Assembly (NCBI GenBank): GCA_051599415.1
Contig: AP039713.1
Span: 62,001-126,000, forward strand
Length of the DNA stretch: 64,000 bases
From: Savitreella phatthalungensis
Lineage: Eukaryota
Reading direction: 5' to 3'
Position 1 is the first letter of the stretch, and each line of letters begins with the position of its first letter. A program made the position numbers and the translations under genes. Below are positions 7,483-50,204 of the stretch, one piece after another. Under the pieces are notes generated by a model, which was given only the letters and a program-made list of their open reading frames with translations, did not search any database and was not told the origin of the DNA.

Positions 7483-8565
7483 CTATTCTGGAGAGGCCTG
7501 ATCCGCTGCCGAGGCCGTCCGGTCGATCAAGTGTCTTGGCAAGGACTTCTTCACTGTTCCTGTCCCTCCTCGCGCACCCGCCGATGGCGCACCGTACCTC
7601 GCTTCAAGCGCTTTCGCCTTGGCCCTCGCTTCCTCGATCCTGCTCGCATCCCCGTCGACCTGCCCTGCTGCCGAACTAGCATCTCGATCCTTGTCAAACA
7701 CTGCAGCTCGAGCATCCCAGGCGAATACCCGGTCCTTCTCGAACGCCTCTGCAGTCTTGTGACCGCGTTCAAAAGCGCCATCGACATTACCGCGGCCACC
7801 ACGACCCATCGACCTCGACTTTGGGTTGTAGTCGGCAGAATCCTCACCAGGACGCAAGTAACCAGCGGTGTCCTCGCGCAAGCGCATTGGCTGCTTGACC
7901 TCTGCCGCCTGAGCTCCTGCACCGCCACTCCCATCCGCGGCGCCCGCGGGGTGAAGGAGCTCTGCGATGGTGCCTGGGACGGGTTTCTGTGGTAGGTGCT
8001 GCTTGCTCTGGAGCGCCTGTATCCTGGCTGTGTGGTGAGCAAAATCGTACCCGTTCGCGAGGTCGCGCTTAACGTCCCACGACAGATCAATCGCCTCCAC
8101 CACATCATCCCCACCGACCTCACCACCACCACCATCCCACCGAGCACCACGCTTCCGTGGACGTTCAAGGCAGTCCGCCTTCACGTGCGTCCTCGCACCG
8201 CAATTATCACACCCACCAGCCTGCCAGCGCGCTCCACCACCACGCCGTCGAGCAGGCGCACCGCGCGTGTACCAGCGCGTGTTGGCGATCGCGTTGGCGT
8301 CGGCAGAGATCCCGTGATGCTGGTGTCCCAGGGACTCGCCTGACCCATCGTCTGCGTACCATGGCGCCTTGGCGATGAACTGTGGGATGTACGGGTTGAC
8401 CCGTTTTCCTTTTGCATCCACCGACACATCACCAGCACCCTTCCCTTTCCCAGAACGCCCCTCACCCACACCCACACCCACACGCTCACCAGTCGCACCA
8501 CCCATCCCCAAAAATCGCTTGCTGTCACGCGCAATCTCAGCAGCCATGCTAGCGCTAGACTCCAT
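7483..8565 (-). CDS. SLU7: Pre-mRNA splicing factor Slu7
   Basis: NPYIPQFIAKAPWY, zinc knuckle CDNCGARTHVKADCLERPRK, WDVKRD..NGYD and LREDTAGYL..YNPKSRSM. Confidence 0.9.
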   Translation of the reverse strand: MESSASMAAEIARDSKRFLGMGGATGERVGVGVGEGRSGKGKGAGDVSVDAKGKRVNPYIPQFIAKAPWYADDGSGESLGHQHHGISADANAIANTRWYTRGAPARRRGGGARWQAGGCDNCGARTHVKADCLERPRKRGARWDGGGGEVGGDDVVEAIDLSWDVKRDLANGYDFAHHTARIQALQSKQHLPQKPVPGTIAELLHPAGAADGSGGAGAQAAEVKQPMRLREDTAGYLRPGEDSADYNPKSRSMGRGGRGNVDGAFERGHKTAEAFEKDRVFAWDARAAVFDKDRDASSAAGQVDGDASRIEEARAKAKALEARYGAPSAGARGGTGTVKKSLPRHLIDRTASAADQASPE

Positions 8566-10711: not shown

Positions 10712-11878
10712 TAGAAGACCAAATGTAGCGCGCGCTTGTGCCTCCCAAGTCCGACAGAGATCAGTAACGATAGCGTCTATCAAGTAAGGCAGTTGAGGAA
10801 ATAGACTGGACAGAGAGAGTGAGCTATGACGATGGAGGTGCTTGCGCGTAGCTATTTGATTGATCCAATGATTGATCGATATCCACTCGGATCATCTGAA
10901 CTCTTCCATTGACGAGCACTAGATGGACACGTGAAATTCCATTCCACTTCTATTTTCAACATTCTGAATGACAGGAGACTGATCCGCAGTCAATACAAGA
11001 TCTGGATTCAAAGGAGCAATCGTCGACCTGGACGCATGAACGGGCGCATGAACTGTTGATGGGCTGCATTGAGCAACAAAAAACCCAACTGGAAGAGATC
11101 GGATGCAGACATACACATAAAACATTCTACAGTTCAGGAAAGATGCACAGGAAAGGTACAAATTGATTGTGTATGACAAGAAACACGTGAAAGAATCCAT
11201 CAGGCTGAACTCAATTTTTTCAAAACTGATCAGTTACCCACGAATTTCTCACCCTTCCTATCCATAAATTCCTGAGCGCTCAGCACTCAATAATTCTCAA
11301 CAGAATATCATTAAAAGCTGAGATCTATTCACTTCTTTTGCCTTAAGAATTTGAATTGGTTATCTTATTGTTGAATCGGTCAATCCAGTAGCGGTTCAGT
11401 TCTCTCGCTCTCATTCTCTCCCACTGACTCAGTCTGGCTGGGTATTGGCTATCGTGTAGGTGTGCCTCTCGCTCGCTCTACCTCTCATGCTACCACCTAC
11501 CCAGCTACCCTACCTTCTCACTCAATCTGTCCTCGTGTGCGCGTGTGTGTGCTTGTGTGTGTGTGTGTGTGTGAGTGAGCGAGTGAGTGAGTGACTGAGC
11601 AAGTGTCAGGCAGCAAATACCCTCACCACACCAAGCGCTGTAGCAGCACCTGCACCAGCACCACCAGCACCACCACCGGTAGTAGCAGCATACTCTGCTA
11701 GTCAGCCAGCGAGCAACCAACCAACCACCAAGCTATCCACAGCACACAGGCTTACCCGGTATCCACACAATCATCCGCTACACTCACCAACTTCACTCGC
11801 CCTCGACCATATCAGCACGGCCCCTGACAATCTATACAAGTCAGGAATCTCGCGCGACACTCTTCATCTCGACTCAAG

Positions 11879-12799
11879 ATGCCGTAAGTCAATCCATCCC
11901 ATGTGTGAATGCTACAGGAAGGTACATGCTGTTGATGCTCAAGATGTTGCTTGCTCTTCGATCAGGAGGGGAAAAAATCATCGTTTGCAGGTCGCTGCTC
12001 GAACGGTGTGAGGGAAAACGGGATATGGTTGCCCAGGTCTGTGACTTTGCAGGTATACAGTGCGCGACACATACTGTCTTACTACCAGATTTGCGTCGCG
12101 CTTGCGATACTCAGCTGGCATACAGTCAAGTTTGTCGCTGGACCTGCGCACCAGGGAGAGCCTGGACGTATCTGGTGACGACCTTGCGCAAATCATTCCG
12201 CCTGTTCACGACCGCTGCCCTCCCCCAAGAGCTTCAGAAGCGCACTTGGACATGACAGCATGACCTTCCGTCAATAGCACACACAGACCCTGAGAGAGTA
12301 CATTACTGACCCTGTCGCTAGTCACTCATTCGGTCTCCGCGCACGTACCAGACATGCCTTCGCCCGTAACTTCCGGGAGAAGGGTATGATCCGTCTGTCT
12401 ACCTACCTGAAGACATACAAGGTAGGAGACATTGTTGATGTCGCCGTCAACGGTGCCGTTCAGAAGGGTATGCCACACAAGTACTACCACGGCAAGACCG
12501 GTATCGTCTACAACGTTACCAAGTCATCTGTCGGTGTCATCTTCTACAAGGTCGTCAACGGCCGCTACCTCGAGAAGCGCGTCAACGTCCGCATCGAGCA
12601 CGTCAAGCACTCCAAGTGCCGTGACGACTTCCTTCGTCGTGTGAAGGAGAACGCTCGCCGGAACAAGGAGGCAAAGGCAAAGGGTGAGACCGTGCTGCTG
12701 AAGCGTCTGCCTGCCGCACCACGTGAGGCACGCACAGTCCAGACCGAGGGCAACGCACCGGAGAACCTTCACCCGGCTGCATACGAGACCTACATTTGA
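11879..12799 (+). CDS. RPL21: 60S ribosomal protein L21 (eL21); exons 11879-11883 and 12322-12799
   Basis: ATG CC|gtaagt...tactgac..ctag|T CAC gives [54 protein letters not shown]. Confidence 0.97.
11884..12321 (+). other. Spliceosomal intron of RPL21 (438 nt), extensively self-complementary
   Basis: GTAAGT donor, TACTGAC branch at 12304-12310, TAG acceptor. Splicing restores the eL21 N-terminus. Confidence 0.93.
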
Positions 12800-13485
12800 G
12801 CATGGAACACAGGAAGGACAATCAAGCAAAAAGGGCTGGATCTTCGCATCCTGCTATTGTGCGTCCTGTCTCTGTCTTTTTCACTCTCTCTCATGTCTGT
12901 TCCGTCGTCGTCTCGATGGATACTTCCCTCATCATACACACACATCCGGACCCTTTTCATTCCCCGTAAAGGTCTACCATACGCATGGCCAATCTTATGC
13001 AATGACTTCATTCTCACACTTTATCCTTTCCATGTTTGGTCCGTGCTATCTTTCAATTGTGCATATCGATCATCCAAGCCCTTGTCGGCCTGGGAAAGAC
13101 CTTCTTATCTAACTAAAACCGACGCTGTGAACTAGCCATGAACTTCAGCTGAACTCTATGTAAGGATAGCTAGATGTGCCCCCTTACAGCTTTGAAGCTC
13201 TGTCGCTGAACGGTCTTCTTCACGTGCAAAATCAGATGTGCCTTTTTGTCTCTTGAAATCTCTGATGGATGCATGGAAACATGGTTGACAGAATCTTGTG
13301 CTGGATCGTGGTTGATTGATTGATTGATTGAATGATTGAATGATTGATGTGATTAGAGCTTTCGTCATAGCTTCTCCCAAGGCACCGACAAATAGACTAT
13401 ACACACACGCCACGCAACGCTATCTAAGCATCAATAGTACTAGTGACGATGATCTCTGCTCTGTGATCAACCTCGGAAACATCCC

Positions 13486-14916: not shown

Positions 14917-16671
14917 ATGACGCAGGTAGACCTGCCGGCAACGCTGCTGCCGCATGATATCGCCATCAGCAAGCTCGTGGGATACTACCTTGGAAACGCG
15001 GATTGTGCTGCTGGCGGCGCACTGCAAGCTAGGTACAGCGCCTTCTTGTGCTTCATCTTCCGCCTCACGAATCTGCCTTCACAAGACCTGGCGTCAAAGT
15101 ACGATGCACATGTTTTCAAGCAGGAACTCACAGAAGTCCTAGGCGACCAGCTCAGTCAGCCCATCCTCACACAGCTCGACCACGACCTGCTAGAGCTCAC
15201 TGGCGAAAGGGACACATTCGCATCCTCACAGGCAGGTCCACATGACCCGCTTCACCACGCCAGAAACGATATCGAGCGCTGGATCTCCAACGACGTAAGC
15301 CTGTCGGACGACAACTACGTGCGGGCGAATTCGTATCTCGGCGTCTACCTGCGCAGAAACGCGCTCGCGCTTCGTCAGATGTCGTTTAGGCAGACGCTGC
15401 GACTGCAGGAGAACCTGCGTCGGTGGTGGGCAGGTGAGACCCTGAAACGGCCTCGTCACATTACAGACGACCCCGCAGAGCACAGTCGAGAACTGTTCCT
15501 GGACGCATGGAAGCAGGCGGACTACAGCACAGCACTTGAGCACCTCTCACGTCACTTTGACTACGTCGAACGTCAACAACCTCACGACAGCGGTCCTCCC
15601 ACCACCTCATCACAACTGTCGTACCAGTATGCACTCCTCAACCTCGCACTCCTCCAGTCAGATTTCAGGTGCGATCGTGAAGCGCTCTGGGCCGTGCACG
15701 AGGCGATCGATGCAGCGAGGGATAACAAGGATGTTGTGTGTCTGAACATCGCGCTCGCCTGGCTGTCGGAGCTGGTGATGCACGACGAGGAGGCCGTGAG
15801 CGAAGGCAGCTACCTGCGGGAGGAAGATACGAATTTGTACGTGATCAAGCGGGCGAGGGACAACAACTTGCCAGCGATCGAGTCCCGCGCCTGGCTGTCC
15901 CGGCGAGCAGGATCTGCTCGAGAAGCACTCGAAAACCTGACGAGGTCGACGCGCGTCGCCATCGACTCCAATACCTCATACTCGCTCGCACAGTTCGCAG
16001 CCATGCATGACTTCTGGCGAGACGCAGACCAACCGTCCCTCGCAGCTGCCGCCCTCCTCCTCGCCTCGGTCTTCGCCGACACGACGGAGGTGAACGAGGA
16101 TGTGGCAGTCGTCAAGTGTCGAGCCGCTCAGAACGCATGGCAAGCCGGTGATCGTGATACCGCACGGACCGCCATCACAGATGCTTTATCACAGAGCGAG
16201 GGGATTGTTATCTGCGAAGACATCTATCGTTCTCAGCTTGCTGTCTTTGACGCCGAAAGCCGCGAGGGTGGGATGACAGTCGATCAGCTGGCGTTTGTGG
16301 TTGCAGGCAACACGGCACGTGCAGATAACATTCAGCTTCGCCACCTAGAGACCGCCGTCCTCCAACTCATCCAAGAAGGGCAGTATACACGGGCACAGCA
16401 GATCCTCGACCTGAAGTTGAAACCGATCGTCGGCAGAGGTCTAGCACAGCAACCTCAGCAGAGGCATGCAATCTCAGAACTCCTCAACGCCAAACTTGCA
16501 CACGCCACAGGAGAGCACGAGACCGCACTCCTACACGCAGCCAAGGCCATGCGCATCGCAGCAGCCTATCGTCTACGGTACCAACTCTCCGAGGTAAGAG
16601 CGTTTGTCACCACACTCGCACACGACGTTCGTCAAAAGACTGAGCTTGGAAGATCTCTGGCGGTACGGTGA
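14917..16671 (+). CDS. APC5: Anaphase-promoting complex subunit 5
   Basis: Apc5 domain DYSTALEHLSRHFDY..YQYALLNLALLQSDF..EAIDAARDNKDVVCLNIALAWL, plus N-terminal SYLGVYLRR. Confidence 0.88.
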   Translation: MTQVDLPATLLPHDIAISKLVGYYLGNADCAAGGALQARYSAFLCFIFRLTNLPSQDLASKYDAHVFKQELTEVLGDQLSQPILTQLDHDLLELTGERDTFASSQAGPHDPLHHARNDIERWISNDVSLSDDNYVRANSYLGVYLRRNALALRQMSFRQTLRLQENLRRWWAGETLKRPRHITDDPAEHSRELFLDAWKQADYSTALEHLSRHFDYVERQQPHDSGPPTTSSQLSYQYALLNLALLQSDFRCDREALWAVHEAIDAARDNKDVVCLNIALAWLSELVMHDEEAVSEGSYLREEDTNLYVIKRARDNNLPAIESRAWLSRRAGSAREALENLTRSTRVAIDSNTSYSLAQFAAMHDFWRDADQPSLAAAALLLASVFADTTEVNEDVAVVKCRAAQNAWQAGDRDTARTAITDALSQSEGIVICEDIYRSQLAVFDAESREGGMTVDQLAFVVAGNTARADNIQLRHLETAVLQLIQEGQYTRAQQILDLKLKPIVGRGLAQQPQQRHAISELLNAKLAHATGEHETALLHAAKAMRIAAAYRLRYQLSEVRAFVTTLAHDVRQKTELGRSLAVR

Positions 16672-17342
16672 GGTGACCTGCATTCAATGCAGCGGATCTA
16701 TATCGTACAAGACACTCGAGATCATACATGCCAGCAAGTGTGCACGTGCCACGAACGCAAAGTGCAATCGACTCAACAAGCACGTGCACCAGACGAACAC
16801 TCGCCCGGAGCGTCTCGTCCTTGCCACATATTTCCAGCCACAAACTTTGGGTGGTCAATTTCAGCTTTTCGATGATCGATGCCGCAATCTCCGAGGAACC
16901 CTTTTGTGCGAAGTACTGTGGATGATGACGCACACATTTCTATCATTTCTTCAAAAACACGTGCGGTTGCGTGATTTTCAAGAAAACTTTTTTTTTTCTA
17001 CGCGGAATGCACAAGCAAGCACGCAATCGACCCAAGTGGCGTCGAATCAATGCACAAATTCAATCTCTCACAATCTAACCACAGTCAATCTGTCACAACG
17101 CCATTCCCGCCGTCCACTCGACCTACCTGGTCACCCTCTACAGACTGCACTACCCTGTCACAACCGAAGCTACTATCTTCATCAGATTCAAGCCACGTCC
17201 TCAACCTCGAGTCAGTGTCATTTCCCTGACTCTCTTTCAACCACGCCTGCAGGTATCAAAACACGCAGAGAGGCTCGAGGATCAAGAGATGAGGCCCAAG
17301 TAGCAGCCGCACCGAAGAAACATCAAATACACCGGCGGTAGC

Positions 17343-26600: not shown

Positions 26601-28091
26601 ATGACCGCTGAGTTGGGCTCATCAACGTCCTCGACGCCAGCTAGATCCTCCTCCCCAATCATGACCTCCGCATCCACCCGTCTACCTCGCGTCCTCTTCC
26701 TCCATGGGTACACGCAGTCTGGAAACACGCTCAGGCACAAAACAGGCGCGCTCAGAAAAGCGCTGAGCAAACACGTCGAGCTCGTCTACCCAACAGCACC
26801 CATCTCGCTCGAGCCTCCGGACAGCGGTGACGTAAGTGAGCGAGCGAGACTTGACCAGCTCGGTAATGAGGCTTCCGAGGGCAGCTTTGCCTGGTGGCGA
26901 GCTGATGAAGAGAAGCAGGAATTTACAGGGATCGACAAGACCATGTCGTTGCTGAAGGACGTGCTGGAGAAGCAAGGTCCATTCGACGGAGCGATGGGGT
27001 TCAGCCAAGGCGGTGGCCTCGTCGGTATGCTTGCTCCACTTCTCGAGAAGCAGGGCAACCCACTGCTCGACACCACCCACCCGCCGCTCAAGTTTGCCGT
27101 CGTCTTCTCCGGCTTCAGGGCAAGATTCCCAAAGTACAACTGGATCTACGAACCACCTTCCACCACACCGACCCTCCACGTCATCGGTCGAAACGATCCC
27201 ATCGTCACACCAGACCGCTCACGCACTCTCGTCGACGTCAACACACAGCCGCAGATCCTCGAGCATCCAGGCTCTCATTTCGTCCCTTCAGGCGCACCTC
27301 AGCGGAACGCCGTGGTTGACTTCGTCGTTGCGCACACCCGGCCACGGCGTCCGCTGACGTGTATTGTGGCTGCGACGTCGTCGACGCTCGGAATCGGAAA
27401 GAACGGTGGTCTGCCGTGGCGATTGCGGAAGGAGATGGCGTACTTTGCGCAGGTCACTGAGGCCGTGGCGAGTGGTCGGGCTGAGGGCGAGAGTCCTCGG
27501 CAGAACGTGGTCATCATGGGGCGCAAATCATGGGAATCCATCCCTCCCAAATTCAGACCCCTCAAAAACCGGATCAACGTCGTCGTCTCCAGGGATCCAA
27601 ACTTCACCCTCGATCCATCAGACCCATCTATCCGCCAGGCCAGATGCCTGACCGCAACCTCGATCGACGACGCACTCGCCAAGGTCGAGCGTGAGTACGG
27701 TGCAGACGATCTGGTCGGTGAAGTCTACATCATCGGTGGCGGTCAACTCTACAGCGCTGCCCTCGATCACACTGACTGCCACCGCCTCCTCCTCACCGCC
27801 ATCGACCACGACTACGACTGCGATACCACCTTCCCCATCGACCCGCGCACGCACACCGACTGGCACAGGCAGCCGTACTCACAGACCATCACAGCACTCA
27901 CAGGACTGCCAGCAGACCAGATCCAGGAGGAAAATCAGGTGGAAAAGGACGTCAAGTGGGAGTACCAAGTCTACGAGCGTCGACTGCCACCGTCAGAGTC
28001 TGCATTTGCAGCAGCAGCAGGAGTCAAGACTACAGATGAAGAAGATAAGCTTCACGGCAGTATCCATGACAACTCGGAGCACAAGCTGTAG
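26601..28091 (+). CDS. DFR1: FSH1 serine hydrolase-dihydrofolate reductase fusion
   Basis: LFLHGYTQ, GFSQG, HVIG..D and HPGSHFVP, followed in frame by DHFR motifs GIGKNGGLPW, VIMGRKSWESIP..RPLKNR and IIGGGQLY. Confidence 0.93.
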   Translation: MTAELGSSTSSTPARSSSPIMTSASTRLPRVLFLHGYTQSGNTLRHKTGALRKALSKHVELVYPTAPISLEPPDSGDVSERARLDQLGNEASEGSFAWWRADEEKQEFTGIDKTMSLLKDVLEKQGPFDGAMGFSQGGGLVGMLAPLLEKQGNPLLDTTHPPLKFAVVFSGFRARFPKYNWIYEPPSTTPTLHVIGRNDPIVTPDRSRTLVDVNTQPQILEHPGSHFVPSGAPQRNAVVDFVVAHTRPRRPLTCIVAATSSTLGIGKNGGLPWRLRKEMAYFAQVTEAVASGRAEGESPRQNVVIMGRKSWESIPPKFRPLKNRINVVVSRDPNFTLDPSDPSIRQARCLTATSIDDALAKVEREYGADDLVGEVYIIGGGQLYSAALDHTDCHRLLLTAIDHDYDCDTTFPIDPRTHTDWHRQPYSQTITALTGLPADQIQEENQVEKDVKWEYQVYERRLPPSESAFAAAAGVKTTDEEDKLHGSIHDNSEHKL

Positions 28092-49790: not shown

Positions 49791-50204
49791 ATGCCACCGA
49801 TGCCAGCACAACAACAACGCCCTGGCGCACAGGGTCCATCTAATCTCGACAAGATGACCGTACGTTCTGTCCTTCTGCCTCTCTCGATTTCTCTGTGACA
49901 TCTACTGACGTCTTTTTTCTTCTGACAGATGGGTCTGATGATGGGTACAGCAGTAGGATGCTGTGTTGGTGTCCTGTTTGGTGGATTCAATGCACTCCGG
50001 TACGGTCCGGGGCCTGATGGATTTCTGCGTTACATTGGCAAGAACATGGCTGCTAGCGCTGCGATGTTTGGCGGATTCATGTCAATTGGCAGTGTCATCC
50101 GTACCGAGGGTTCTGCGACGCGCTCTCCTACAATCAAGCGCGTCATGTGGGAACAACAGCAAAAGGAGGGGGAGATTTCGAGAACATCTCGCCTGAGAGC
50201 ATGA
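49791..50204 (+). CDS. MGR2: Mitochondrial TIM23 subunit Mgr2/Romo1; exons 49791-49859 and 49929-50204
   Basis: [35 protein letters not shown] across a 69-nt GTACGT..TACTGAC..CAG intron. Confidence 0.93.

What the first reader, a model, noticed from the sequence alone, without database searches (positions are those of the whole stretch)
11884..12321. RPL21 intron folds into a long nested stem: candidate structured RNA or autoregulatory element
Seen: the intron is 438 nt, versus 65-69 nt for the other three. GGAAGGTACATGCTGTT (11917-11933) pairs with GACAGCATGACCTTCC (12254-12269), giving 15 WC pairs, 1 GU pair and one bulged A. Pairing continues inward in nested order: CAAG/CTTG, GCTT/AAGC, GCTCTT(11953-58)/AAGAGC(12227-32), GGAGGG(11965-70)/CCCTCC(12218-23), GGTCG(11990-94)/CGACC(12209-13) and GAACGG(12001-06)/CTGTTC(12202-07). 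Internal arms include ACCAGAT(12084-90)/ATCTGGT(12170-76) and a CCAGG-GAGAG-CCTGG hairpin. Folding leaves about 85 unpaired nt, close to normal intron size. Known: structured introns mediate autoregulation in some yeast ribosomal-protein genes (e.g. RPL22, RPS9). Inference: an undescribed eL21-sensing splicing switch, or an intron-hosted ncRNA.
Basis: partly seen in the sequence, partly recalled or inferred. Interest (0 to 1): 0.72.

Follow-up and report, generated by a model that had tools for sequence, protein, structure and literature searches.

The report
Zipper-like hairpin in yeast eL21 intron
The one long intron of a leaf yeast's ribosomal protein L21 gene folds into a strong hairpin that brings its two splicing signals close together, a feature well known from baker's yeast, and nothing found here shows a new sensor or a hidden RNA gene.

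Summary
The 438-nt intron (11884-12321) is real. Two RNA-like public contigs join 11883 to 12322, and the spliced protein is 100% identical to the NCBI eL21 of Savitreella phatthalungensis (Taphrinales).

The long-range helix is real on paper. MFE is -160.9 kcal/mol (z -3.3 to -3.6; 0 of 100 and 0 of 300 shuffles reach it).

By the published geometric criteria, the core helix (11917-11947 / 12242-12269; 27 bp, -33.4 kcal/mol, 72 nt of linkers) qualifies as a "zipper stem". None of 40 shuffled-interior controls reach it.

Eight budding-yeast-like relatives carry a long intron (254-785 nt) at the same codon position. Four of the eight have a predicted zipper stem.

I found no snoRNA boxes, no Rfam match, no second copy in the window and no excess of wobble pairs on the sense strand.

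No closely related genomic intron could be fetched, so covariation is untested. The eL21-sensor and ncRNA-host readings have no support but are not refuted.

Best reading: a strong zipper-type helix, possibly born from a palindromic insertion, that keeps a long intron spliceable. It is a new member of a known kind, of modest interest.

The parts
11879..11883 (+). exon 1 of the eL21 gene (ATGCC: Met plus the first two bases of the Pro codon)
   Evidence: sequence. MP + exon-2 translation equals the 160-aa NCBI eL21 P0002.
11884..12321 (+). single spliceosomal intron, 438 nt, phase 2
   Evidence: GT..AG joint 11883->12322 in one contig of X3 (0 other letters, 27-nt side) and one of X8 (9 other letters, 25-nt side). 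Both sides are shorter than the 31 letters the tool advises.
11884..11889 (+). 5' splice site GTAAGT
   Evidence: In the MFE, GUAA pairs with UUAC of the branch region (pair probability 0.67).
11902..11972 (+). 5' arm of the long-range interrupted helix
   Evidence: arms cofold at -67.4 kcal/mol. Arm-to-arm alignment scores 47 against a shuffle maximum of 32.
11917..11947 (+). 5' strand of the zipper-stem core (27 bp with at most 5 bulged nt)
   Evidence: [quoted passage not shown] Pair probabilities 0.83-1.0.
11973..12215 (+). interior multibranch domain enclosed by the helix, with local hairpins 12062-12101, 12127-12186 and 12151-12165
   Evidence: pair probabilities 0.88-0.99 for the local hairpins. 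No RNA family match. No snoRNA boxes.
12242..12269 (+). 3' strand of the zipper-stem core
   Evidence: ends 39 nt before the branch adenosine. Total linkers 72 nt.
12216..12285 (+). 3' arm of the long-range interrupted helix
12304..12310 (+). branch-point sequence TACTGAC (branch A at 12309, 12 nt before the 3' splice site)
   Evidence: Assigned by consensus only; not mapped.
12319..12321 (+). 3' splice site TAG
12322..12800 (+). exon 2 of eL21 (158 codons plus stop TGA)
   Evidence: translation. Pfam PF01157 is listed for its homologues.

Best explanation
The only intron of the eL21 gene of this Taphrinales yeast is about six times longer than the one other intron I could verify in the window. 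It carries a long, almost purely Watson-Crick inverted repeat.

In the pre-mRNA, the repeat should fold into a very stable interrupted helix (11902-11972 with 12216-12285). [quoted passage not shown] This is the geometry of a 'zipper stem', as described for long ribosomal-protein introns of S. cerevisiae.

The most likely role is permissive or enhancing: the helix lets a long intron be recognised and spliced like a short one. How the repeat arose is inferred, not shown. The likeliest route is an inverted duplication or palindromic insertion into an older, shorter intron at an ancient intron position.

Shown: the intron boundaries, the complementarity, its statistical excess and its fit to the geometric criteria. 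Inferred: that the helix forms in vivo and helps splicing.
For: - The intron is spliced exactly as modelled, and the spliced protein is 100% identical to the annotated eL21.
- The fold beats shuffles: 0 of 100 and 0 of 300 on three measures. It lies in about the top 1% of the window's own 438-nt stretches after GC correction.
- The outer stem has pair probabilities 0.78-1.0.
[quoted passage not shown] Here these are 27 bp, 33 nt, 39 nt and 72 nt, at -33.4 kcal/mol. None of 40 shuffled-interior controls reach it (maximum 15 bp, minimum -17.7).
- Eight of eight budding-yeast-like loci whose intron I could delimit have an intron in the same phase, in the codon just before the conserved His/Arg, 254-785 nt long.
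- S. cerevisiae RPL21A and RPL21B introns are 388 and 421 nt (supplementary file 11 of PMC12350175).
- Four of those eight loci have a predicted zipper stem of 6 bp or more; three beat all but at most one shuffle.
- Long ribosomal-protein introns (about 400 nt against about 100 nt for other genes) and common zipper stems are described for yeast (introduction of bioRxiv 10.1101/2025.03.14.643126; PMC2536676 passages).
Against: - There is no in vivo structure or splicing data for this organism.
- No orthologous intron from a close relative was available, so there is no covariation evidence at all.
- The minus strand folds about as well: z -2.84, end-to-end duplex -95.6 against -90.1.
- The sense strand has fewer wobble pairs in its long-range helix (3) than the antisense strand (10), and 45 core pairs are shared by both. 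So nothing marks selection at the RNA level rather than a DNA palindrome.
- The 'structural branch-point distance' is short (MFE 4, ensemble mean 8.9), but shuffled interiors also give short distances (mean 18), and 3 of 60 are as short.
- Uncorrected, 37 of 1590 window stretches have as strong an end-to-end duplex.
- Not every zipper stem promotes splicing; RPL28 variants are a counter-example (PMC12350175).
- The nearest relatives with genomic DNA on hand differ here. L072/L075 have no intron at this site, and L058 has a 66-nt intron 3 nt upstream.
Confidence: 0.5

Rival explanations
1. Neutral leftover of a DNA-level event: a foldback or MITE-like palindromic element, or an inverted duplication, landed in a short intron. 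It persists only because a self-pairing insert does not disturb splicing, and the helix has no selected function.
For: - The helix is almost purely Watson-Crick and equally good on both strands.
- Arm similarity is concentrated in the outer 70 nt or so, like terminal inverted repeats.
- Removing 11902-12285 leaves 54 nt, and removing 11917-12269 leaves 85 nt. Both are close to the 69-nt intron at 49860-49928.
- More distant relatives have no intron or a short one here.
Against: - There is no second copy of the arm or the intron in the 64-kb window. The 17-mer matches once even with 3 mismatches allowed, and blastn finds only 15-24-nt chance hits at E >= 0.28.
- I saw no target-site duplication at either candidate boundary (reading).
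- The whole genome could not be searched.
- This reading overlaps with the best explanation, because an insert can become useful once it is there.
Confidence: 0.25
2. An eL21-responsive autoregulatory element. Excess free eL21 binds part of the intron fold and blocks splicing, as shown for other yeast ribosomal-protein genes.
For: - Splicing autoregulation through structured introns is known for RPL30, RPS14B, RPL22B and RPS9A/B. It is also known for RPL7B (abstract) and for RPL18B, RPL28 and RPS22B (abstract).
- In RPL7B the regulated feature is a zipper stem.
- In the yeast screen, RPL21A and RPL21B GFP fusions fell by 0.63 and 0.74 log10 units on eL21 overexpression.
- The enclosed 243-nt domain has well-defined hairpins.
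Against: - No alternative fold competes with the outer stem (pair probability near 1.0).
- No conservation data exist.
- Both yeast paralogs respond alike, which the authors attribute to protein degradation.
- RPL21 is not mentioned in the main texts of PMC7732827, PMC12350175, PMC4937481 or PMC4856989.
- Resemblance to the eL21 site on 25S rRNA was not tested, because no rRNA was on hand.
Confidence: 0.08
3. The intron hosts or yields a functional RNA. Candidates are a snoRNA in the interior, a small-RNA precursor cut from the hairpin, or an RNase III target that destroys unspliced transcripts and lariats.
For: - The intron is far larger than splicing needs, and its hairpins are stable.
- Intronic snoRNAs are common in yeast ribosomal-protein genes (mentions the RPL7 second introns).
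- RNase III cleavage of an unspliced RP intron is cited for RPS22B.
- One weak C-box-like word, GUGACGA at 12175, has a CUGA at 12290.
Against: - There is no Rfam match at gathering score in the whole window.
- On the sense strand of the intron there is nothing even at E <= 10; the only snoRNA-like hits are antisense, at E 0.61 and 2.5.
- CUGA occurs only at 12290 and 12306, and the flanking stem of the one C/D candidate is weak (-3.4 kcal/mol).
- No hairpin-H box-hairpin-ACA architecture passed my heuristic on either strand.
- The helix is broken every 3-9 bp, which makes it a poor Dicer-type substrate.
- The hairpin loops GAGAG and GUCG are not the AGNN type that I recall yeast Rnt1 needing.
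Confidence: 0.08
4. Chance complementarity in a long intron, with no biological meaning and no special origin.
For: - Any 438-nt RNA of 52% GC folds compactly.
- A few other window stretches score as well.
Against: - 0 of 300 shuffles reach it on three measures.
- 0 of 40 controls reach the zipper stem.
- The arm alignment scores 47 against a shuffle maximum of 32.
- The helix sits symmetrically between the splice signals.
Confidence: 0.05

Closest known systems
Zipper stems of long S. cerevisiae introns (RPS17B, RPS6B, APE2 and many RP genes; Rogic et al. 2008, PMC2536676; Rangan et al. 2025, PMC12350175)
   Same: [quoted passage not shown]
- It lies in a roughly 400-nt intron near the start of a ribosomal-protein gene.
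- All positional criteria are met in silico.
   Different: - The organism is a Taphrinales yeast, not a budding yeast.
- The stem is much stronger (27 bp, -33 kcal/mol; whole helix -67 kcal/mol) than the 7-16-bp stems I computed for RPL21 introns of budding-yeast-like loci.
- There is no probing or mutational evidence here.
RPL7B first intron: zipper stem as a splicing enhancer, switched off by Rpl7 binding to an alternative structure (Granas et al. 2025, abstract read)
   Same: A ribosomal-protein gene with a first-intron zipper stem.
   Different: - RPL7B has a weak branch sequence (UGCUAAC) and a conserved, mutually exclusive alternative fold.
- Here the branch sequence is TACTGAC, no competing fold is predicted, and conservation is unknown.
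S. cerevisiae RPL21A/RPL21B introns (388 and 421 nt)
   Same: The same gene. The intron lies in the same phase in the codon before the conserved His, as seen in budding-yeast-like loci, and is of similar length.
   Different: - No sequence similarity is expected or seen.
- Whether the S. cerevisiae introns have zipper stems was not read. The paper's main text does not name RPL21, and its supplementary files 13-15 were not searched.
MITE / foldback transposable elements
   Same: A few hundred bases bounded by imperfect inverted repeats, non-coding, sitting inside an intron.
   Different: No target-site duplication was seen, there is no second copy in the 64-kb window, and no family could be sought genome-wide.

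Membership tests
Zipper stem (Rangan et al. 2025 criteria) | Stem of at least 6 bp with at most 5 bulged nucleotides | tested here: met
   27 bp, 11917-11947/12242-12269, in the MFE structure. The core is 16 bp with one bulge.
Zipper stem (Rangan et al. 2025 criteria) | [quoted passage not shown] | tested here: met
   33 nt and 39 nt. The branch point is assigned by consensus TACTGAC only.
Zipper stem (Rangan et al. 2025 criteria) | [quoted passage not shown] | tested here: met
   72 nt. With the outward extension 11902-11914/12275-12285, the total is 18 + 23 = 41 nt, at the lower limit.
Zipper stem (Rangan et al. 2025 criteria) | Helix confidence of at least 70% from in vivo DMS-guided modelling | not testable with these tools
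   Only thermodynamic pair probabilities are available, 0.83-1.0.
Zipper stem (functional sense, RPS17B type) | Disrupting the stem lowers splicing and compensatory changes restore it | not testable with these tools
   This needs mutants in the yeast or a reporter.
Ribosomal-protein splicing autoregulation (RPL30, RPS14B, RPL22B, RPS9, RPL7B, RPL18B, RPS22B) | Splicing or expression is repressed by excess cognate protein through the intron | not testable with these tools
   No expression data exist for this organism.
Ribosomal-protein splicing autoregulation | Intron structure conserved across related species | tested here: inconclusive
   - No genome is held.
- The best metagenome relatives are 71-79% identical in protein and lack a long intron here.
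- Relatives at 85-88% are known only as proteins.
Ribosomal-protein splicing autoregulation (RPL7B type) | An alternative fold mutually exclusive with the enhancer stem | tested here: not met
   The outer stem has pair probability near 1.0 in the ensemble. This is in silico only, and protein binding could change it.
Ribosomal-protein splicing autoregulation | Intron element resembles the protein's rRNA binding site | not tested
   No 25S rRNA of this organism is in the window or on hand.
Box C/D snoRNA (intron-hosted) | C box RUGAUGA and D box CUGA 60-300 nt apart, closed by a terminal stem | tested here: not met
   - There is no exact C box.
- One 1-mismatch word at 12175 can pair with CUGA at 12290 or 12306, with weak flank pairing of -3.4 and -3.9 kcal/mol.
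- There is no sense-strand Rfam match.
H/ACA snoRNA (intron-hosted) | Hairpin - ANANNA - hairpin - ACA | tested here: not met
   0 candidates on either strand by my heuristic and no Rfam match. The heuristic is crude, and fungal families in Rfam are mostly from budding yeasts.
MITE / foldback element | Terminal inverted repeats | tested here: met
   The outer arms of about 70 nt align at score 47 against a shuffle maximum of 32.
MITE / foldback element | Target-site duplication flanking the repeats | tested here: not met
   No direct repeat is seen at the boundaries 11901/11902 and 12285/12286, or at 11916/11917 and 12269/12270 (reading). Old insertions can lose it.
MITE / foldback element | Multiple copies in the genome | tested here: inconclusive
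   None in the 64-kb window. The whole genome is not held.

The most novel reading that the evidence does not exclude
The unusually strong helix is more than a splicing aid. It would present the enclosed 243-nt domain as a binding platform through which free eL21 (or an RNase III/Dicer-type enzyme) tunes RPL21 output. That would be a lineage-specific autoregulatory intron in Taphrinomycotina, built on an intron position shared with budding yeasts, and the first mechanism for the eL21 feedback seen in the S. cerevisiae screen.
Probability: 0.1. Interest if true: 0.6.

Novelty: new member of a known kind. Interest (0 to 1): 0.3.

Why it matters
If the helix works as proposed, the 'long ribosomal-protein intron held together by a zipper stem' design is not confined to budding yeasts. 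It would also occur in an early-branching ascomycete lineage, at an intron position the two lineages share. That bears on why intron-poor fungi keep long introns in ribosomal-protein genes. This example is also an unusually clean test object: one intron, and one very stable helix with a pair probability near 1. It could be used to ask whether zipper stems are selected or are merely the only kind of insertion that a short-intron spliceosome tolerates. By itself it does not open a new class of element.

Tried and rejected
- **Whole genome:** none is held for this window, so no genome-wide copy search or survey of other RP introns was possible.
- **Sequencing runs:** no RNA holder is listed.
- **Laid runs:** X3, X4, X6 and X8 gave no contig over the intron interior. 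This says nothing about intronic RNAs.
- **Metagenome scan:** 275 of 449 candidate stretches encode relatives and 80 were kept. The best protein identity is 71-79%, so nothing there can be aligned to this intron.
- **Earlier findings of this scan:** nothing for this genome, its look-alikes or this sequence. The word search gave only unrelated prokaryotic hairpin repeats.
- **ESM Atlas for placing the organism:** uninformative.
- **Structural branch-point distance:** it does not discriminate, since 3 of 60 shuffled controls are as short.
- **109-aa ORF inside the intron (11926-12255):** no homologue at E <= 0.001 and no Pfam match. I treat it as chance.
- **Rfam:** 5 matches at E <= 10 in 11000-13400, none credible and none on the sense strand of the intron. 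There are 0 at gathering score in the whole window, and 0 tRNAs.
- **My crude intron scans:** noisy (68 and 10 candidates). Only 49860-49928 looked sound.
- **Bacterial promoter/terminator scan:** irrelevant to a eukaryote.
- **N-terminal extensions of relatives' ORFs (P0003, P0053):** they gave no usable view of the relatives' introns.
- **Literature:**
  - Searches for 'zipper stem/intron/branch point' and 'RPL21/intron/secondary structure/splicing/autoregulation' found no report of an RPL21 intron element.
  - Searches for 'Savitreella' and 'Taphrinomycotina/intron/ribosomal protein genes/secondary structure' found no report of structured RP introns in Taphrinomycotina.
  - For these four searches I read the listings only.
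  - bioRxiv supplements are closed, and supplementary files 13-15 of PMC12350175 were not searched.

Full report
**What is there**

The window is from an intron-poor fungus with GC around 55%. The eL21 gene starts with ATGCC at 11879-11883. It is interrupted by GTAAGT...TACTGAC...TAG at 11884-12321 and continues as one open exon to the TGA at 12798-12800.

MP plus the exon-2 translation is 100% identical over 160 residues to the NCBI protein named '60S ribosomal protein L21 [Savitreella phatthalungensis]'. That species is a yeast of the Taphrinales, described from pineapple leaves (title and abstract of PMC8877625).

Splicing at exactly these borders is seen in public data. One contig of run X3, with no differing letter, joins 11883 to 12322 (GT..AG, 438 nt skipped). 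So does one contig of run X8, with 9 differing letters. The 5' sides are only 27 and 25 letters, below the 31 the tool advises. The kind of both runs is not on record: X3 is guessed to be RNA and X8 is unknown. I take this as good but not perfect support.

The gene has this one intron only. I could verify one of them, 49860-49928 (69 nt; GTACGT...TACTGAC...CAG), in a small gene.

**Is the fold real and more than chance?**

RNAfold gives -160.9 kcal/mol against -139.2 +/- 6.5 for 100 dinucleotide shuffles (z -3.34; none as good).

In 300 shuffles of my own, none reached any of three measures:
- the MFE;
- the duplex energy between the first and last 130 nt (-90.1 against -60.4 +/- 7.6);
- the 67 pairs that span more than 200 nt (21.5 +/- 14).

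In the Boltzmann ensemble, seven of the ten named stems have mean pair probabilities of 0.78-1.00. Three are near zero because local alternatives win: GGUCG/CGACC, GAACGG/CUGUUC and ACCAGAU/AUCUGGU.

The robust feature is an interrupted helix, 11902-11972 with 12216-12285 (arms cofold at -67.4 kcal/mol).

Measured against the window's own DNA, the excess is clear but not extreme. Among 509 other 438-nt stretches, after correcting for GC, three fold as well and one has as good an end-to-end duplex. Five reach 67 long-range pairs, one of them the intron's own window. Without GC correction, 37 of 1590 stretches have as strong a duplex.

**RNA or DNA feature?**

The antisense strand folds almost as well (z -2.84), and its end-to-end duplex is slightly better (-95.6). 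Forty-five long-range pairs are Watson-Crick and shared by both strands. The sense strand adds 3 G-U pairs and the antisense strand 10. So there is no sign of the wobble enrichment on the transcribed strand that long selection on an RNA would tend to leave.

Arm-to-arm similarity scores 47 against a maximum of 32 in 300 shuffles, and it is concentrated in the outer 70 nt or so. This looks like an inverted repeat that arose at the DNA level.

It is not demonstrably a transposon. The 17-nt arm word occurs once in the window even with three mismatches allowed. blastn of the intron against the window finds only 15-24-nt matches at E >= 0.28. I see no target-site duplication at either plausible boundary. 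The genome is not held, so a family could not be sought.

**Hidden RNA gene or protein?**

Rfam gives nothing at gathering score in the whole window. Within 11000-13400 at E <= 10, the only matches in the intron are antisense snoRNA look-alikes at E 0.61 and 2.5.

On the sense strand, CUGA occurs only at 12290 and 12306. There is no exact C box. One 1-mismatch word at 12175 has weak flank pairing. No hairpin-H-hairpin-ACA arrangement passes a simple filter on either strand.

A 109-codon ORF (11926-12255) fills the hairpin, but it has no homologue and no Pfam match.

**What it most likely does**

Rangan et al. gave explicit criteria (passages of PMC12350175):
- at least 6 bp with at most 5 bulged nucleotides;
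[quoted passage not shown] - linkers totalling 42-85 nt.

They found such stems in 32 of 88 probed introns.

Applying these criteria to the MFE structure gives a 27-bp stem, 11917-11947 with 12242-12269. Its linkers are 33 and 39 nt (72 in all) and its energy is -33.4 kcal/mol. In 40 controls with shuffled interior and intact splice signals, the best stem was 15 bp and -17.7 kcal/mol.

A cruder measure, the shortest path from the 5' splice site to the branch adenosine, is short (4 in the MFE, mean 8.9 in the ensemble). It does not discriminate, because shuffled interiors average 18 and 3 of 60 are as short.

The helix loops out 353-384 nt and leaves 85 or 54 nt. That is the size of the ordinary 69-nt intron in the window.

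**Comparative context**

No close relative's intron could be obtained. The best metagenome relatives are 71-79% identical in protein. Of these, L072/L075 have no intron at this site and L058 has a 66-nt intron 3 nt upstream. Proteins 85-88% identical exist, but only as protein records.

In eight budding-yeast-like loci where I could delimit the first intron, it lies in phase 2 of the codon just before the conserved His/Arg (MGKS|H/RGYRS). This is the same place as here (MP|HSFG). Those introns are 254-785 nt long. S. cerevisiae RPL21A and RPL21B introns are listed at 388 and 421 nt (supplementary file 11 of PMC12350175).

With the same procedure, four of the eight have a zipper stem of 6 bp or more (7-16 bp). 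Three of them are matched by at most one shuffle.

So a long, often zippered first intron at this position is a recurrent property of fungal RPL21 genes. The present one is the strongest in this small set.

**The autoregulation idea**

Splicing autoregulation through structured introns is established for several yeast ribosomal-protein genes. In RPL7B it works by destroying a zipper stem.

For eL21 the only data I found are in supplementary file 2 of PMC7732827. RPL21A-GFP and RPL21B-GFP fall by 0.63 and 0.74 log10 units on overexpression of an element-free copy, and both are flagged as more than 3-fold. The authors state that paralogs falling alike probably reflect protein degradation.

RPL21 is absent from the main texts of four relevant papers. 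In this intron no alternative fold competes with the outer stem. The idea is therefore open but unsupported.

**Verdict**

The interpretation should be replaced by a known one: a zipper-type long-range helix in a long, start-proximal ribosomal-protein intron, here in a Taphrinales yeast, possibly derived from a palindromic insertion.

The decisive tests could not be run with these tools. They are relatives' introns for covariation, a genome-wide copy search, and probing, mutants and reporters.

Noticed in passing
window 11879-12325 compared with L007, L008, L011, L019, L021, L022, L023, L046: The eL21 first intron sits in phase 2 of the codon just before the conserved His/Arg, both here (a Taphrinales yeast) and in eight budding-yeast-like metagenome loci. 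It is long in all of them (254-785 nt). This looks like an old, position-conserved intron.
   Followed up: partly
window 11926-12255 (+): A 109-codon ATG-to-stop ORF fills almost exactly the hairpin region of the intron. It has no homologue in the 5.8-billion-protein search and no Pfam match, so it is probably chance.
   Followed up: yes
window 11537-11700: The region upstream of the eL21 start codon holds (GT)n and GTGA-type microsatellites, followed by CACCAG-type repeats. In the RNA-like contig of X3, the transcript's 5' end reaches at least to 11857.
   Followed up: no
window 26601-28088 (+): A single 496-aa ORF joins an FSH1 serine-hydrolase domain to a dihydrofolate reductase domain (Pfam). 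I recall such a fused form from fission yeast, which would fit the Taphrinomycotina placement.
   Followed up: no
window 49792-50204 (+): A small gene with a textbook 69-nt intron (49860-49928; GTACGT, TACTGAC, T-rich tract, CAG). It is the only short intron I could verify.
   Followed up: partly
window 14917-17341 (+): Two ORFs in different frames overlap at 16604-16671. The first carries an ANAPC5 domain. This suggests an unrecognised short intron or a frameshift in that gene.
   Followed up: no
proteins P0034, P0041, P0042 (relatives, 85-87% identical): Their ORFs leave the eL21 sequence right after '...AAYG' and run on into unrelated residues. This suggests a 3'-proximal intron in those relatives that this gene lacks.
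   Followed up: no
window 12044-12061 and 12109-12126; 11984-11992 and 12045-12053: Inside the intron there is an 18-nt direct repeat at 78% identity. The word TTTGCAGGT also occurs twice and looks like a 3' splice site abutting a 5' splice site. Their meaning is unknown.
   Followed up: no
window 7486-8565 (-): An ORF with a Slu7 (second-step splicing factor) domain lies about 3 kb upstream of the eL21 gene. I take this as a coincidence of position.
   Followed up: no
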